Below are positions 1,355 through 4,740 of a DNA stretch of 30,568 bases, piece after piece. Location: NCBI GenBank assembly GCA_947174645.1, contig CAMWJR010000001.1, positions 1 through 30,568 of the forward strand, given 5' to 3'. The notes beneath the pieces were generated by a model. The model was given only the letters and a program-made list of their open reading frames with translations. It was not told the DNA's origin and did no database searches. Numbering within the stretch: the first letter of the stretch is position 1; each line of letters opens with the position of its first letter. Source of the stretch: an uncultured Verrucomicrobiota bacterium (lineage in GTDB: Bacteria > Verrucomicrobiota > Verrucomicrobiia > Opitutales > LL51). A program made the translations under genes and the position numbers.

Positions 1355-2488
1355 TCAATTTACAACTATTGGGTCGCCTGCTGTTCTGTTACGTTGATTA
1401 AGATTAAGCAACTCTTTAATTCTCGCTCTAGTCAGTGATTTTTCTCTCCCCTCATCTTCTCGCCACTCAGTCTCTAGAGTCGCCTTCCACTGAAGCTGAT
1501 TTCTTCCGGTGAAAGGAGGATCACCCACCTCTTGGTACCCGGTCTTTACATCGGCAAACTCTGTGAGAGGCTGAACATGATTCCCTGTAAACATAACATC
1601 AAATACAGTCGGCCTAGCTCCTATATTCCATTCTTCCATAATGCCCCAGACAAAATGACCATGTTGCTCATCAAGTAGACGAGATAACACACGAATACCA
1701 CCCAAATCAGAAAGAGGCGTTCTCTTTCCATTCTCACCAATCCAATCGACGCCTCCCATCAACGGCAACATATCTAAATGGAAATACTCGCCCATTGCGA
1801 AAAACCCTGAGACATCATCCCATGTAAGGCAAGATACCTCTTTATACGGCAATTGCCAATTTCCGGCAAGTTTTTGCTGCAAAGGATCATTCCTATAAAC
1901 ACGCCTGTATTCCTTCCATAAATCATCCTCTTCAGCCGCTGCACCATTTGCCGCCAAATTGTATCTTATTACTTCTAAACGAACGTTATCGATGAGTTTA
2001 CACAAAAGCCCCTCAATATACTTATGCTTCTCCTCCTCACCTTCATTAGCTATACCGTTAGAGCTAAACACCCTTCCAACTAATTCTTCTACGCGATTCC
2101 TTTCATCTTCATTTAACGGAATATTTTGACCCAAACGGAGCCCGTACCATATCGCACAGGCCCAAGCCGTTTCCGCCAAATCTCTGCGCATACACCCAAC
2201 TCTCCATGAACCGATTTTACTCGTGTATAGCGCGTACTGCAGTCTAGAATTCTTTTGGCCTTGCAAGTGCAGCATCACATTTGTGAGAACTGACCAAAAG
2301 AAACAATTCCCATCCCCAGGAACGTGAACACTGTAAACTTCTCCTGTCGCCTGTTGTCTAAAATCTCTCGAGACACAAATCGCCTCGTATTTTGCCGGAG
2401 CAGCGGCTCGTAACGCCGGTGAGAATAGGCTCACTAACCCGACTAAGGTTAACACCTTCTCTAAGCTGTGACATACTTTTCGCCTCAT
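1355..2488 (-). CDS. Secreted OTU-like cysteine protease (putative deubiquitinase), copy 1
   Basis: OTU Cys box VHVPGDGNCFFWSVL (Cys codon 2303-2305) and His box FDVMFTGNHVQPL (His codon 1577-1579). Signal-peptide-like start MRRKVCHSLEKVLTLVGLVSLFSPALRA from ATG 2488; the ORF extends to a TTG at 2569 with other ATGs at 2554, 2533 and 2527. Confidence 0.75.
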   Translation of the reverse strand: MRRKVCHSLEKVLTLVGLVSLFSPALRAAAPAKYEAICVSRDFRQQATGEVYSVHVPGDGNCFFWSVLTNVMLHLQGQKNSRLQYALYTSKIGSWRVGCMRRDLAETAWACAIWYGLRLGQNIPLNEDERNRVEELVGRVFSSNGIANEGEEEKHKYIEGLLCKLIDNVRLEVIRYNLAANGAAAEEDDLWKEYRRVYRNDPLQQKLAGNWQLPYKEVSCLTWDDVSGFFAMGEYFHLDMLPLMGGVDWIGENGKRTPLSDLGGIRVLSRLLDEQHGHFVWGIMEEWNIGARPTVFDVMFTGNHVQPLTEFADVKTGYQEVGDPPFTGRNQLQWKATLETEWREDEGREKSLTRARIKELLNLNQRNRTAGDPIVVN

Positions 2489-2683
2489 TGAAACGAAAGC
2501 ACCTGCCAATTCGTTTCTCTTGTTCATATTCATAGCTGCTGGAGCACATTGCATTTTGAGTACTGTCAAGCAATTATTTTAATTTCAGAAAAATAAAAAA
2601 TGGCGGCGCACACCACACGTAAAATCCCTGTGAAGCTTCTCAAAGCTGACCCAATTGAGACAAAAACCAAGCTCTGGCAGCTC

Positions 2684-2759
2684 TGGCGGGGGAAGAGAGA
2701 CTCGAACCCTCGACCTTCGGTTTAGAAGACCGCTGCTCTATCCACTGAGCTACTCCCCC
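2684..2759 (-). tRNA. tRNA-Arg(UCU)
   Basis: GGGGGAGTAGCTCAGTGGATAGAGCAGCGGTCTTCTAAACCGAAGGTCGAGGGTTCGAGTCTCTCTTCCCCCGCCA: cloverleaf, anticodon TCT, encoded CCA. Confidence 0.96.
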
Positions 2760-2815
2760 GTGGCATGTATTCTTGTTTTTCCCGTTTAATGGCAAGCATT
2801 ATCGGGGAAATACAT

Positions 2816-3529
2816 TTAAATTAAAAGACACGGGCAACCTTGACCACAAGTACAGAAATCGCTGTCCATTAAGATTTCTTTAAGCGAAACAACGGTCCGG
2901 ATAACGAGTGCTACACGGACAGCTTTTTGTAAAACAGGTACAACTTTGCTGTATGCCTCTTCGCCAATTTCTTGGGCGTGTTCGCGGCAGTATTTGAGCA
3001 AATCCGAAGTAATCGTTGTAAATTCGTCGATAAGTTCAACAGGTGAAAATCCTTCCCATTCCTCCTTGCGTTCCTGAAAATCATTAAGAATCTCTAGCGC
3101 GTCCTCGGCGCGGCCCTTAAGCATATCCATAGCATCACAGACACTTTGCATTTGATTTTGAAATTCCGCAACAACCTCGGGGTCACCTTCCAGTGTTTCC
3201 ACGCTCAGCTTTAACGCATGGTGAGAAGTTTCGAGAATTTTAATACAATTCTGCAGTTTTCGGATTGATTTTTCCAACGCAGAAGGATTTTCGACGTTCT
3301 CAAGCACCACTCCGCGAGTACGAATCCCATCACCTGAAGTTCCGTAAAGATCGTACTCCATCTGGTCGATAAGTTCATCTTCTGTCGCTTCATGAATAAG
3401 TGGCGTCAAAACAATGTTATGTGTCGAAAACGAATAAACGCTTTTAGGACGAGGTTTTAAAAAAGGTGTCGAACCAAAGCTAAACGAAGCGCCCAATCCC
3501 AGGCACGCGAAAAATAAACATTTTTTCAT
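2816..3529 (-). CDS. Secreted acidic alpha-helical protein with C-terminal Cys cluster and CaaX-like motif; function unknown
   Basis: 237 aa. Signal peptide MKKCLFFACLGLGASFSFG, amphipathic/coiled-coil-like middle, C-terminus DFCTCGQGCPCLLI-stop (checked at nucleotide level, 2816-2860). Confidence 0.8.
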   Translation of the reverse strand: MKKCLFFACLGLGASFSFGSTPFLKPRPKSVYSFSTHNIVLTPLIHEATEDELIDQMEYDLYGTSGDGIRTRGVVLENVENPSALEKSIRKLQNCIKILETSHHALKLSVETLEGDPEVVAEFQNQMQSVCDAMDMLKGRAEDALEILNDFQERKEEWEGFSPVELIDEFTTITSDLLKYCREHAQEIGEEAYSKVVPVLQKAVRVALVIRTVVSLKEILMDSDFCTCGQGCPCLLI

Positions 3530-3540
3530 GGCGTGCCTGA

Positions 3541-3587
3541 TTGTAAAAATATTTTACAAATTTACAACGAAAAAACAAATTTACAAC
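3541..3587. repeat. Inverted plus direct repeat cluster upstream of the CaaX gene (candidate operator)
   Basis: TTGTAAAA-ATA-TTTTACAA inverted repeat (3541-3559) and a 13-bp direct repeat ACAAATTTACAAC at 3556-3568 and 3575-3587. Confidence 0.6.
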
Positions 3588-3608
3588 AAACAACGACTAC
3601 GCAAGATT

Positions 3609-3682
3609 TGGCTGCCCGGCTAGGATTCGAACCTAGACAAACAGAGCCAGAATCTGTTGTGCTACCATTACACCACCAGGCA
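3609..3682 (-). tRNA. tRNA-Gln(CUG)
   Basis: TGCCTGGTGGTGTAATGGTAGCACAACAGATTCTGGCTCTGTTTGTCTAGGTTCGAATCCTAGCCGGGCAGCCA: anticodon CTG, U1-A72 pair typical of tRNA-Gln, encoded CCA. Confidence 0.96.
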
Positions 3683-3927
3683 ATGTGGGAATCAAACTTT
3701 CTTTTCTCGCACCAATGGCAAGGCTTTTTTACCGCCGATACAAAGAAATTCTCGCCATGCCTATAGGATTTTCTTCCGCTTCTCTTAACTGAAATTTATT
3801 CAGATTCTTCGAAGAAGTCTTTTTGTAGCGCAAAAAATGGGTTCATTCTCCGAGAAATAGCAATATTAACGCTTTCTAACTCCACGATCTTACTCGGCGC
3901 ACAATGTGGCTAGGCCCACCCAGCATA

Positions 3928-4740
3928 TTAACTAATATGAATATTGCACGTTTGTGGGACAATTGATTGATAGTGACCGCCCCGGCCATCGCCTCGGTAA
4001 AAAATCGGTATAGGATCTTCTTCTGTCTGAAAATTTCCCTTGTAAGTGTGAGTGATAATTTTTCGTAATCCCTTCTGAAATTCCTCTTTTTTCACGAGAA
4101 TATCGAAACCAATGACCGGTGCGAGAAAAACCGTTAGCGGTGAATCGAGCTCCAATCGCCCCTGTTCGAGCTTTCTTAAAAACTGATTCCAATCGGTATT
4201 ATTGAGATCCTCTTCCTTTTTCTCCGTATCATTCGCGATCAAGGTTGCGATCTCTTCTAATGCTTCGGTATCTTCTGGCGTCCGATCTTGTTTTCCTCGA
4301 ACATAGGCGATACGGTCCGAGAGCCGTTTTAGCAATGCCAAAACTTCCGACTTTTTGACGTAAATATCACGCGCACCATGCTGTTCGGCAATTTTTTTGA
4401 CGACAAGTACCGCCCAAAACCCGCAAAGACCATCGCCCGGTACATTGTACAGCCGAAATCCCGGAGGAACAAGCACCGTGGCGTCTTTTTTCGGAACGGC
4501 GGCGATCTGGCCTAATTGGGGAGGAATGACGTACTTCGAATCTTTGGCGACGCTAGGTTGCCGCGATGCCAAAGTCTTGATTGTTCGTATCGTTTGCGCA
4601 AGTTGTTGATTCGCTTTTTTGGCCGACACCAGTAGCTGTCGCCTTGCATTCTGGATCCGTACCATGTCTGCAGAACTTCCCTCTACCGTGCCAACAGCTC
4701 CCAAAAGTAGGCACGACCATACCCCCATCACCTTAACCAT
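3928..4740 (-). CDS. Secreted OTU-like cysteine protease (putative deubiquitinase), copy 2
   Basis: Cys box YNVPGDGLCGFWAVL (Asp103, Cys106; Cys codon 4423-4425) and His box IFYRGDGRGGHYQSI (His256; codon 3973-3975). Signal-peptide-like MVKVMGVWSCLLLGAVGTVEG. Confidence 0.8.
   Translation of the reverse strand: MVKVMGVWSCLLLGAVGTVEGSSADMVRIQNARRQLLVSAKKANQQLAQTIRTIKTLASRQPSVAKDSKYVIPPQLGQIAAVPKKDATVLVPPGFRLYNVPGDGLCGFWAVLVVKKIAEQHGARDIYVKKSEVLALLKRLSDRIAYVRGKQDRTPEDTEALEEIATLIANDTEKKEEDLNNTDWNQFLRKLEQGRLELDSPLTVFLAPVIGFDILVKKEEFQKGLRKIITHTYKGNFQTEEDPIPIFYRGDGRGGHYQSIVPQTCNIHIS

What the first reader, a model, noticed from the sequence alone, without database searches (positions are those of the whole stretch)
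1355..4740. tRNA-interleaved islet of three signal-peptide proteins that look like a host ubiquitin/membrane manipulation toolkit
Seen: between glgB and mtaB, all on the minus strand, the order is OTU protease - tRNA-Gln - CaaX protein - tRNA-Arg - OTU protease. All three proteins have N-terminal hydrophobic leaders. Established: OTU deubiquitinases and CaaX prenylation act on eukaryotic machinery, and are used by effectors of intracellular bacteria such as Legionella and Chlamydia. Inference: this probable Opitutales-like anaerobe is a symbiont of a eukaryote (e.g. a gut protist) carrying a clustered effector module. I know of no described system of this kind in that lineage.
Basis: partly seen in the sequence, partly recalled or inferred. 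Interest (0 to 1): 0.88.

Follow-up and report, generated by a model that had tools for sequence, protein, structure and literature searches.

The report
Exported OTU proteases in gut endosymbiont
A tiny-genome verrucomicrobial bacterium from a gut sample, which carries the standard gene kit of bacteria living inside eukaryotic cells, has a small gene cluster for one clear and one probable ubiquitin-stripping-type (OTU) protease and a protein ending in a eukaryote-style lipid-attachment signal. These are most likely tools for handling its host, a known trick in a lineage where it has not been published.

Summary
Between glgB and mtaB, all on the minus strand, lie a 270-aa ORF (OTU2), tRNA-Gln(CTG), a 237-aa ORF ending CLLI, tRNA-Arg(TCT) and a ~392-aa ORF (OTU1). 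Each ORF has an N-terminal hydrophobic leader.

- **OTU2:** it has no Pfam hit, but its AlphaFold model matches only OTU deubiquitinases (VIA Z 14.1 to Wolbachia wMelOTU). Cys106 and His256 sit in the expected places, and dN/dS is 0.07.
- **OTU1:** it shares only the catalytic Cys loop (hhalign 88%). Its model failed and it evolves fast (dN/dS 0.39).
- **CaaX protein:** it is an orphan under strong constraint (dN/dS 0.08). A 28%-identical homologue between the same two tRNAs in another species still ends CCLLL.
- **Genome:** 0.77 Mb, with an ATP/ADP translocase, an injectisome (SctV/SctC/SctY) and ankyrin proteins. In 201 genomes of the order, the OTU family occurs only in 0.8-1.1 Mb genomes that have the translocase.

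The host-symbiont reading is therefore well supported. Ubiquitin cleavage, prenylation, the export route and any functional coupling of the three genes remain inferred. The tRNAs are single-copy ancestral anchors, not island integration sites.

The scan already reported related exported OTU paralogues on other DNA (e1-2556853). Verdict: new member of a known kind, moderately interesting.

The parts
3928..4740 (-). OTU2: 270-aa exported OTU-fold cysteine protease. Leader is residues 1-~25, low-confidence basic helix 23-58, catalytic domain ~84-270. Asp103 is codon 4432-4434, Cys106 is 4423-4425, His256 is 3973-3975.
   Evidence: The AF2 core has pLDDT ~90. The top 50 Foldseek PDB hits are all OTU DUBs. 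VIA-align gives Z 14.1 to wMelOTU and 13.5 to OTUD3, and 94 chains reach Z>=8; all 50 listed entries are OTU-type. Cys106 starts helix 106-119 and His256 starts strand 256-262. The protein aligns over residues 88-264 with P0058, which passes Pfam OTU. dN/dS is 0.07.
3609..3682 (-). tRNA-Gln(CTG), the only gene for this isoacceptor in the assembly. It is a conserved anchor of the interval.
   Evidence: ARAGORN on the window and on the whole genome. It occupies the same position in G003, L002 and G167.
2816..3529 (-). 237-aa helical orphan protein with an N-terminal leader and an invariant C-terminus C226-x-C228-GQG-C232-P-C234-L-L-I237. The CaaX box is at 2819-2830 and the stop at 2816-2818.
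   Evidence: Only three close relatives were found among 5.8 billion proteins. dN/dS is 0.05-0.08. A 95-aa homologue in G167, between the same tRNAs, is 28% identical and ends CPNGCCLLL. No family or fold match was found.
2684..2759 (-). tRNA-Arg(TCT), the only gene for this isoacceptor in the assembly. It is a conserved anchor of the interval.
   Evidence: for the gene and its copy number. Same position in the relatives.
1355..2569 (-). OTU1: fast-evolving OTU-like protein. The ORF runs from TTG 2569; the probable start is ATG 2533, giving 392 aa. The Cys loop VPGDGNCFFWS has Cys77 at 2303-2305. About 240 residues separate it from a conserved GNH motif (His319 at 1577-1579).
   Evidence: hhalign against the OTU2 family gives 88% probability, E 2.9e-6, over the Cys loop plus 70 columns. 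Three of the top five PDB profile hits are OTU domains at the Cys loop, none individually significant. Cys and His motifs are conserved in the 28%-identical L002 orthologue. The AF2 model is unusable, pLDDT 42. dN/dS is 0.39. The protein was found only in G000, G003 and L002.
4778..6079 (-). mtaB-like radical SAM methylthiotransferase: the conserved upstream flank of the islet.
   Evidence: Pfam UPF0004 plus Radical_SAM on the orthologue in L001/L002. Collinear at 91% DNA identity with G003.
2..1300 (-). glgB (1,4-alpha-glucan branching enzyme) N-terminal part: the conserved downstream flank of the islet.
   Evidence: Pfam GlgB_N, CBM_48 and Alpha-amylase on the orthologues. Collinear with G003.

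Best explanation
The window comes from an uncultured, genome-reduced (about 0.77 Mb) Opitutales/Puniceicoccales bacterium found in gut metagenomes. Its whole clade has the gene kit of an obligate intracellular symbiont of eukaryotic cells, most likely gut protists.

The mtaB-glgB interval is an old, fixed stretch of chromosome anchored by two essential single-copy tRNA genes. In this genus it has become a hot spot where lineage-specific exported proteins are gained, duplicated and lost.

In this genome it holds three such genes:
1. OTU2 is a divergent but genuine OTU-fold cysteine protease (Cys106/His256) under strong purifying selection.
2. A helical 237-aa protein has an invariant cysteine-rich C-terminus ending in a CaaX box (CLLI).
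3. OTU1 is a rapidly evolving OTU-like protein with a long insertion between the Cys and His motifs.

Inferred mechanism (not shown):
- The N-terminal leaders send the proteins through Sec to the periplasm.
- A type II-like secretin system or vesicles release them into the host compartment in which the bacterium lies.
- There OTU2, and perhaps OTU1, removes ubiquitin or a ubiquitin-like modifier from host or symbiont-surface targets, blunting ubiquitin-dependent clearance.
- The CaaX protein is prenylated, and probably palmitoylated on the upstream cysteines, by host enzymes, which pins it to a host membrane.

Shown: gene anatomy, the OTU fold of OTU2, selection, synteny, phyletic pattern, and the intracellular hallmarks of the genome. 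Inferred: substrate, export route, lipidation, the host, and any cooperation between the three proteins.
For: **Fold**
- The OTU2 model core has pLDDT ~90.
- Only OTU DUBs were retrieved: Foldseek top 50; VIA-align Z 14.1 with rmsd 2.6 A over 142 residues to ubiquitin-bound wMelOTU.

**Sequence bridge**
- The family profile finds P0058 (E 1.5e-7). P0058 passes the Pfam OTU gathering score (24.1 vs 23.3).
- P0058 aligns with OTU2 from the Cys loop to the His loop.

**Selection**
- dN/dS is 0.07 for OTU2, 0.08 for CaaX and 0.39 for OTU1.

**Synteny**
- The same skeleton, mtaB-OTU...tRNA-Gln-CaaX-tRNA-Arg...glgB, occurs in G003/CP095464 (6 ORFs), L002 (5 ORFs) and G167 (3 ORFs).

**CaaX**
- The ending is conserved at 28% identity.

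**Lifestyle**
- The genome is 765 kb and 90% complete.
- TLC translocase, E 1e-174.
- SctV 881 bits (cut-off 692), SctY, and SctC 333 bits (cut-off 238).
- A GspD-like secretin and two GspF-like proteins.
- Leader-bearing ankyrin proteins.

**Phyletic pattern in 201 genomes of the order**
- The OTU family is in 22 genomes, all 0.8-1.1 Mb.
- All 22 are among the 50 genomes with a full-length translocase. In 21 of them SctV is above the cut-off; in the 22nd (G044) it lies split across two contig ends.

**Other**
- The runs that hold this DNA are gut metagenomes.
- Literature proposes the small-genome Opitutales families as protist endosymbionts with a nucleotide transporter (PMC11257099) or as symbiont-exclusive clades (10.1101/2025.05.29.656868).
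Against: - No OTU2 family member except P0058 reaches Pfam OTU, and PF02338 finds nothing in the genome.
- The residue two positions after the catalytic His is Gln or Trp, not the usual Asp/Asn, so the third catalytic residue is unidentified.
- Sec-type leaders are atypical for known bacterial OTU effectors, which are delivered by T3SS or T4SS. A periplasmic, non-ubiquitin role is not excluded.
- Cysteines crossing an oxidising periplasm could be disulphide-bonded, which sits badly with later lipidation.
- The G167 CaaX homologue has no leader.
- OTU1's fold is unverified. Its Cys-loop Asp is Val in the sister genome.
- No host has been identified, and one paper reads a related family as free-living scavengers (PMC12306168).
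- No other ubiquitin-system domains were found.
Confidence: 0.55

Rival explanations
1. The hydrophobic N-termini are membrane anchors rather than cleaved Sec signals. The proteins would be injected by the type III system and sit in a host or vacuole membrane, as described for membrane-anchored chlamydial-type DUBs such as SnOTU.
For: The genome has an injectisome. The 2026 review describes SnOTU as a membrane-anchored OTU DUB of a chlamydia-related bacterium (PMC13720258). The G167 CaaX homologue lacks any leader yet keeps the CaaX end, which fits Sec-independent delivery.
Against: The hydrophobic stretches are only about 15 residues long, start within the first few residues (OTU2, CaaX) or after a basic stretch (OTU1), follow Lys/Arg, and are followed by small-residue motifs. 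That is the layout of cleaved signal peptides. Many distant family members have the same layout. No signal-peptide or T3SS predictor was available.
Confidence: 0.15
2. The OTU-like proteins are periplasmic or surface cysteine proteases acting on bacterial substrates (envelope proteins, peptides for nutrition, or rival microbes). They would have nothing to do with ubiquitin. The CLLI end would be incidental, or part of a metal- or disulphide-forming cysteine cluster.
For: All carry Sec-type leaders. There is no Pfam OTU hit and the third catalytic residue is non-canonical. A CaaX ending is close to chance frequency in this genome. A published reading treats a related family as possible scavengers (PMC12306168).
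Against: The structural neighbours are exclusively deubiquitinases, including ubiquitin-bound bacterial and viral ones. The family is confined to genomes with the translocase and injectisome and was not found in 151 other genomes of the order. The CaaX end and upstream cysteines persist at 28% identity. A second leader-bearing protein in the genome ends in polybasic-CLLL, next to two leader-bearing ankyrin proteins.
Confidence: 0.2
3. The three genes are unrelated neighbours in a variable region. OTU1 is decaying, and there is no 'module': each protein, if functional, acts on its own.
For: Gene content of the interval differs between species: 3, 5, 6 and 3 ORFs. This genome has cleanly lost two OTU paralogues, and lacks a coiled-coil gene present in G003. 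OTU1 has dN/dS 0.39, is restricted to three genomes, and has a Cys-loop Asp-to-Val change in G003. The tRNAs separate the genes into different transcription units.
Against: An OTU-family gene next to mtaB and a CaaX gene between the two tRNAs co-occur in all four genomes examined. OTU1 keeps an intact frame and its Cys and His motifs at 28% identity. This rival is compatible with the best explanation for each single protein.
Confidence: 0.1

Closest known systems
Bacterial OTU deubiquitinase effectors (wMelOTU/wPipOTU of Wolbachia, ChlaOTU, SnOTU, Legionella LotA-D, RickOTU, EschOTU; Schubert et al. 2020 as cited in PMC13720258)
   Same: The papain-like OTU fold has the catalytic Cys at a helix N-terminus in a D-G-x-C loop and the His on a C-terminal strand. 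The best structural match is wMelOTU bound to ubiquitin (Z 14.1). The gene is carried by a genome-reduced bacterium with intracellular hallmarks.
   Different: - Below the Pfam OTU threshold.
- A family of only 71 clusters among 1.84 billion representatives.
- Sec-type leaders instead of T3SS/T4SS delivery.
- Gln/Trp instead of Asp/Asn two residues after the His.
- Verrucomicrobial host lineage.
- Activity untested.
Eukaryotic OTUD-type deubiquitinases (OTUD3, OTUD1, OTUD5/DUBA, yeast Otu2)
   Same: Compact OTU core of about 140-150 aligned residues, Z 12.4-13.5, rmsd 2.8-3.7 A.
   Different: 11-18% sequence identity. The helical insertion at residues 130-210 is lineage-specific. There are no UIM/UBA accessory domains. 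The protein is bacterial and carries an export leader.
CaaX-box bacterial effectors lipidated by host prenyltransferases (Legionella CaaX effectors such as AnkB; Salmonella SifA) - from my own knowledge, not checked here
   Same: The C-terminal Cys-aliphatic-aliphatic-X sits exactly at the end of a protein of an apparently intracellular bacterium. Extra upstream cysteines resemble the Ras/Rho-type second (palmitoylation) signal.
   Different: The known examples are injected by T4SS or T3SS and have no Sec leader. This protein has no recognisable domain. Prenylation is untested. The family is confined to a few closely related genomes plus one diverged 95-aa homologue.
Sec-dependent chlamydial secreted proteins such as CPAF (from my own knowledge, not checked here)
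   Same: This is a precedent, in the same PVC superphylum, for a protease with a Sec signal that reaches the host cytosol by a two-step route in a bacterium that also has an injectisome.
   Different: Unrelated fold (CPAF is a serine protease). The route in this organism is only inferred from a GspD-like secretin and GspF-like genes.

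Membership tests
OTU cysteine proteases (Pfam PF02338 / MEROPS C85) - OTU2 | OTU variant of the papain fold | tested here: met
   AF2 core pLDDT ~90. All top 50 Foldseek PDB hits are OTU. VIA-align Z up to 14.1, with 94 chains at Z>=8; all 50 listed entries are OTU-type.
OTU cysteine proteases (Pfam PF02338 / MEROPS C85) - OTU2 | Catalytic Cys in a D-G-x-C loop at the N-terminus of the central helix | tested here: met
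   VPGDGLC106G is invariant in the family. Helix 106-119 starts at Cys106.
OTU cysteine proteases (Pfam PF02338 / MEROPS C85) - OTU2 | Catalytic His followed by an aromatic residue, on a C-terminal beta-strand | tested here: met
   G-H256-Y is invariant. Strand 256-262. It aligns with the HYQS of the Pfam-positive P0058.
OTU cysteine proteases (Pfam PF02338 / MEROPS C85) - OTU2 | Third catalytic residue (Asp/Asn, usually His+2) | tested here: not met
   His+2 is Gln258, and Trp in two members. Another residue, such as invariant Asp103 or Asp199, might serve, but I could not measure the geometry.
OTU cysteine proteases (Pfam PF02338 / MEROPS C85) - OTU2 | Score above the Pfam gathering threshold | tested here: not met
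   No OTU hit at E<=1 for OTU2 or its 8 closest homologues. None in the genome. Only the distant member P0058 passes (24.1 vs 23.3).
OTU cysteine proteases (Pfam PF02338 / MEROPS C85) - OTU2 | Isopeptidase activity on ubiquitin or a ubiquitin-like modifier | not testable with these tools
   Needs an enzyme assay.
OTU cysteine proteases - OTU1 | OTU fold | tested here: inconclusive
   AF2 with 3 sequences gave pLDDT 41.8. The Atlas feature search gives only a weak lead to an OTU-containing cluster (score 0.86).
OTU cysteine proteases - OTU1 | Cys loop homologous to that of OTUs | tested here: met
   hhalign to the OTU2 family gives 88% probability, E 2.9e-6. The best PDB profile hits are vOTU/EschOTU Cys loops, E 0.013-0.38. 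The motif is conserved at 28% identity.
OTU cysteine proteases - OTU1 | His loop in register | tested here: inconclusive
   G-N-H319 is conserved in all three orthologues and resembles GNHYQAI of the f37 member. No alignment or model spans the 240-residue insertion.
Host-prenylated CaaX effectors | Cys-aliphatic-aliphatic-X as the last four residues | tested here: met
   C234-L-L-I237-stop.
Host-prenylated CaaX effectors | Motif maintained by selection rather than chance | tested here: met
   It is invariant in four orthologues and kept as CCLLL in a 28%-identical homologue. A single occurrence alone would be near chance frequency.
Host-prenylated CaaX effectors | Delivery to a compartment with prenyltransferases, and actual prenylation | not testable with these tools
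   The route is inferred only. It needs expression in eukaryotic cells with a C234S control.
Sec (type I) signal peptide | Basic n-region, 7-15-residue h-region, small residues at -3/-1 | tested here: inconclusive
   The layout fits by eye and by hydropathy. The leader is under purifying selection. No SignalP-type predictor was available.
Obligate intracellular symbiont of a eukaryote | Reduced genome, ATP/ADP translocase, host-directed secretion system | tested here: met
   765 kb. TLC E 1e-174. SctV, SctY and SctC above cut-offs. The same trio runs through the small-genome families of the order.
Obligate intracellular symbiont of a eukaryote | Identified host cell | not testable with these tools
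   I only know that the runs holding the DNA are gut metagenomes.
tRNA-targeted integrative genomic island | Integrase, att-like direct repeat of a tRNA 3' end, foreign composition, patchy presence of the whole interval | tested here: not met
   The interval holds only the three orphan ORFs and two tRNA genes, and none of the ORFs has any Pfam/NCBIfam match, so no integrase. No tRNA-derived direct repeat. GC is 0.41-0.46 against 0.478 genome-wide. The tRNAs are single-copy. The skeleton is conserved across the genus.

The most novel reading that the evidence does not exclude
A whole clade of genome-reduced Opitutales has evolved a chlamydia-like intracellular lifestyle (nucleotide parasitism plus an injectisome). 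In addition it exports a private, fast-turning-over family of OTU deubiquitinases and host-lipidated proteins by the general Sec pathway and a type II-like system, straight into the host cytoplasm or nucleus in which the cells lie. The mtaB-glgB interval would be a tRNA-anchored birth-and-death nursery for such effectors.
Probability: 0.3. Interest if true: 0.65.

Novelty: new member of a known kind. Interest (0 to 1): 0.5.

Why it matters
Bacterial OTU deubiquitinases and CaaX-bearing effectors are well known from Legionella, Chlamydiae, Rickettsiales and Wolbachia. My literature searches found none described for Verrucomicrobiota.

The small-genome Opitutales of animal and termite guts have so far been discussed only in terms of genome reduction, lost biosynthesis and a nucleotide transporter. 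One paper even reads them as possible free-living scavengers.

Concrete effector candidates, plus an injectisome, would move these abundant gut bacteria firmly into the class of intracellular symbionts or parasites of gut protists. They would also give handles (antibodies, activity probes) to find the host.

The Sec-type leaders, if real, would be an unusual delivery route for a deubiquitinase.

Tried and rejected
- **Direct family scans.** Pfam and NCBIfam scans of the three proteins gave only noise. Single-sequence and profile searches of PDB sequences gave no significant hit; OTU Cys loops appeared only at E 0.01-1.6.
- **OTU1 fold.** AF2 with the three available sequences failed, so I did not fold-search that model.
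- **More OTU1 orthologues.** Searching the family for them found none.
- **CaaX protein.** The Atlas gave no usable feature hit and only sub-0.5 TM matches on a poor model. The weak BID-domain hits are not significant and were dropped.
- **Integrative island idea.** Rejected: no integrase, no att repeat, only a mild GC dip, single-copy tRNAs and conserved synteny.
- **Bacterial ubiquitin-like conjugation operon (Bil/Bub-type) as the OTUs' context.** Rejected on anatomy: there are no E1/E2/Ubl neighbours and the proteins carry export leaders.
- **Other ubiquitin-system domains.** Peptidase_C48, U-box and F-box-like were not found in G000 or G003. The U-box control rang nowhere, so that negative is weak.
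- **Accession search.** A paper search for CP095464/GCA_021294815/LW808 found nothing.
- **Promoter/terminator scan.** Not above shuffles for promoters, so I draw no transcription-unit conclusions.

Full report
**1. The observation**

ORF listing and ARAGORN confirm the layout. All features are on the minus strand:
- glgB N-terminal part (2-1300).
- A 404-aa ORF from TTG 2569 to stop 1355 (OTU1).
- tRNA-Arg(TCT), 2684-2759.
- A 237-aa ORF, 3529-2816, ending C-L-L-I-stop.
- tRNA-Gln(CTG), 3609-3682.
- A 270-aa ORF, 4740-3928 (OTU2).
- An mtaB-like radical-SAM gene (4778-6079), then murE.

OTU1 most likely starts at ATG 2533 (392 aa), as in the NCBI call of its orthologue P0011. A public gene call of 278 aa (P0010) starts downstream of the catalytic Cys loop and is probably too short.

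Both outer ORFs carry VPGDG(N/L)C..W, and later a G(G/N)H motif; codon positions were verified. Each of the three proteins has a ~15-residue hydrophobic stretch after N-terminal Lys/Arg. In the OTU2 leader, 7 of 8 codon differences to the sister genome are synonymous, so the leader is translated and constrained.

**2. What the proteins are**

*OTU2.*
- Pfam, NCBIfam and PDB sequence searches give nothing significant for any of the three proteins.
- OTU2 has eight homologues among 5.8 billion proteins, the named ones from Puniceicoccales MAGs.
- A profile of 11 family members finds only 71 clusters among 1.84 billion representatives, so the family is small and lineage-restricted.
- One distant hit, P0058, passes the Pfam OTU gathering score (24.1 vs 23.3). 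It aligns with OTU2 over residues 88-264, Cys loop to His loop.
- The AlphaFold2 model has a confident core (residues ~90-270 at pLDDT ~90).
- Foldseek against the PDB returns only OTU deubiquitinases in the top 50: OTUD3, DUBA, Wolbachia wMelOTU and nairovirus vOTUs.
- VIA-align gives Z 14.1 (rmsd 2.6 A, 142 residues) to ubiquitin-bound wMelOTU and Z 13.5 to OTUD3.
- Cys106 opens helix 106-119 and His256 opens strand 256-262, the OTU arrangement.
- One canonical feature is missing. The residue two after the His is Gln, and Trp in two members, not Asp/Asn.

*OTU1.*
- It is much less certain. Only two orthologues exist, at 70% and 28% identity.
- Its model failed (pLDDT 42).
- hhalign links it to the OTU2 family only over the Cys loop and the next 70 columns (88%, E 2.9e-6).
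- Three of the five best PDB profile hits are OTU Cys loops, none individually significant.
- The Cys loop and a GNH motif survive at 28% identity.

*The 237-aa CaaX protein.*
- It is a helical orphan with three close relatives in the big database and no fold match.

**3. Selection and synteny**

dN/dS against the sister genome:

| Gene | dN/dS |
|---|---|
| OTU2 | 0.07 |
| CaaX protein | 0.08 |
| OTU1 | 0.39 |
| mtaB, murE, glgB | 0.13-0.17 |

Two of the three genes are therefore as constrained as housekeeping genes, and OTU1 evolves fast.

The interval is conserved in outline and variable in content:
- **G003** (the 878-kb complete genome CP095464): OTU2, two more OTU paralogues (328 and 357 aa), tRNA-Gln, CaaX, tRNA-Arg, a 338-aa coiled-coil protein, OTU1.
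- **L002** (a Logan contig): OTU2, two paralogues, tRNA-Gln, CaaX, tRNA-Arg, a diverged OTU1.
- **G167:** a 412-aa OTU2-family protein, a ~640-aa Pro-rich protein, tRNA-Gln, a 95-aa protein, tRNA-Arg, then glgB directly.

DNA alignment shows that the window differs from G003 by two clean gaps, about 2.06 kb and 1.33 kb. Because L002 also has the two paralogues, the first gap is a loss in this genome.

The 95-aa G167 protein is 28% identical to the C-terminal 95 residues of the window's protein and ends CPNGCCLLL. That is the best evidence that the CaaX end is selected. On its own, a CaaX end is close to chance frequency in this genome.

The two tRNAs are the only genes for their anticodons in the assembly. 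There is no integrase and no att-like repeat, and GC is only slightly low. The 'interleaving' is therefore ancestral gene order around essential tRNAs, not an integrated island.

**4. The organism**

- The assembly is 765 kb in 87 contigs, 90% complete, 47.8% GC.
- It encodes a full-length TLC-type ATP/ADP translocase (E 1e-174).
- It encodes an injectisome-type SctV (881 bits against a cut-off of 692; the FlhA model stays below its cut-off), SctY, and an 891-aa SctC (333 bits against 238).
- It also has a GspD-like and a type IV pilus secretin, two GspF-like platform proteins, and several ankyrin-repeat proteins, two of them with leaders.

Across 201 sampled genomes of the same order:
- The full-length translocase is in 50 genomes, all of 1.8 Mb or less.
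- SctV above the cut-off is in 50 genomes, largely the same ones.
- The OTU2-family profile hits 22 genomes in four families, all 0.8-1.1 Mb and all translocase-positive. No larger genome has a hit.
- In the more distant families the match is short. The one I read in full (L012, family f37) has a leader, the Cys loop and a C-terminal GNHYQAII.
- Relatives are not independent samples, so this is a pattern, not a statistic.

The runs that hold this DNA are gut metagenomes.

Published work:
- It places the small-genome Opitutales families LL51 and UBA9783 among putative protist endosymbionts with a nucleotide transporter, naming the intranuclear 'Candidatus Nucleococcus' and ciliate symbionts as members (PMC11257099).
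- It lists UBA9783 as a symbiont-exclusive clade (10.1101/2025.05.29.656868).
- One paper considers UBA9783 possibly free-living scavengers and mentions no secretion system or translocase (PMC12306168).
- I could not determine which GTDB family this genome belongs to.

**5. Mechanism**

The best-supported reading is that these are exported host-interaction proteins of an intracellular symbiont.

What is shown:
- The fold of OTU2.
- The selection on the genes.
- The phyletic pattern.
- The intracellular hallmarks of the genome.

What is inferred:
- The leaders are cleaved Sec signals.
- A type II-like system or vesicles carry the proteins out.
- The bacterium lies directly in host cytoplasm or nucleus, so that exported proteins meet ubiquitin and prenyltransferases.
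- OTU2 cleaves ubiquitin or a Ubl.
- CLLI is prenylated and the upstream cysteines are palmitoylated.

The main rivals are:
- Membrane-anchored, T3SS-delivered proteins.
- Periplasmic proteases with bacterial substrates.
- Three unrelated neighbours rather than a module.

**6. Comparison with the known, and novelty**

- OTU2 meets the structural and motif criteria of the OTU family. It fails the Pfam threshold and the canonical His+2 acid. I file it as a divergent OTU-fold protease that probably works like the bacterial OTU DUB effectors.
- My literature searches found no OTU or CaaX effector described for Verrucomicrobiota. A 2026 review mentions the phylum only for a HECT-like ligase.
- This scan has already reported a tandem family of exported OTU-like paralogues in another Opitutales genome (e1-2556853). 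By its description this is the same family, possibly the G003-type islet.
- New here are the CaaX partner and its conservation, the tRNA-anchored variable interval, the selection figures, and the order-wide link with translocase and injectisome.
- Verdict: a new member of a known kind, of moderate interest.

Noticed in passing
G000:C10:3079-4587 (outside the window); order-wide: There is a full-length TLC ATP/ADP translocase (E 1e-174). The same gene is in 50 of 201 sampled genomes of the order, all of 1.8 Mb or less. One family (f39) has two copies. Larger genomes give only weak partial hits.
   Followed up: partly
G000:C49:2046-4534 (L017) and G000:C15:688-3363 (L020): These are injectisome genes in a 0.77-Mb genome: SctV (881 bits, above cut-off), SctY chaperone, and an 891-aa SctC with a long N-terminal extension. 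SctV above cut-off occurs in 50 of 201 genomes of the order, mostly the small ones, while larger genomes have flagellar FlhA-type scores. The two papers on these lineages that I read do not mention it.
   Followed up: partly
G000:C17:5332-8970 (L024): This looks like a second cluster of leader-bearing candidate effectors. It has two ankyrin-repeat proteins (237 and 437 aa) and a 484-aa metallo-beta-lactamase-like protein (HLHDDH motif; the Pfam hit is weak). That protein ends in a polybasic stretch plus CLLL. The CLLL end is kept in the 80%-identical G003 copy but is absent from more distant homologues.
   Followed up: partly
window 2577-2682 and 3796-3859 versus L001 8632-9958 and 5474-7537: There are two clean gaps relative to the sister genome. 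About 2.06 kb holding two OTU paralogues is missing here; since the paralogues are also present in L002, this is a loss. About 1.33 kb holding a 338-aa coiled-coil gene is also missing here; it is absent from L002 too, so its polarity is unclear.
   Followed up: yes
window 2-1300 (glgB N-terminal part): glgB is much closer to the L002 copy (dS 0.43, 90% aa identity) than its neighbours are (dS 1.6-2.4 for mtaB, murE, OTU2 and CaaX). This suggests recombination between lineages at glgB, or unusual constraint.
   Followed up: no
L001:10001-11146, L001:6531-7601, L002:8816-9808: Several paralogues have lost the conserved Asp of the D-G-x-C loop while keeping Cys and His: VPGVGNC in G003 OTU1, VPGRGRC in the G003 357-aa paralogue, and VPGCGMC in its L002 counterpart. 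The last two also carry a long acidic/Ser-rich insertion before the His loop.
   Followed up: no
window 3520-3593: Just upstream of the CaaX gene there is a conserved TTTACA/TACAAT promoter-like pair ending a few bases before the ATG, with no visible Shine-Dalgarno sequence. There is also a 19-nt tandem duplication (3556-3593) and a 19-nt imperfect inverted repeat spanning the start codon (3500-3539). The mRNA may have a very short leader or none.
   Followed up: no
window 1355-2569: A public gene call for OTU1 (P0010, 278 aa) starts at an internal Met and omits the Cys-loop motif. Automated annotation would therefore hide the protease signature.
   Followed up: yes
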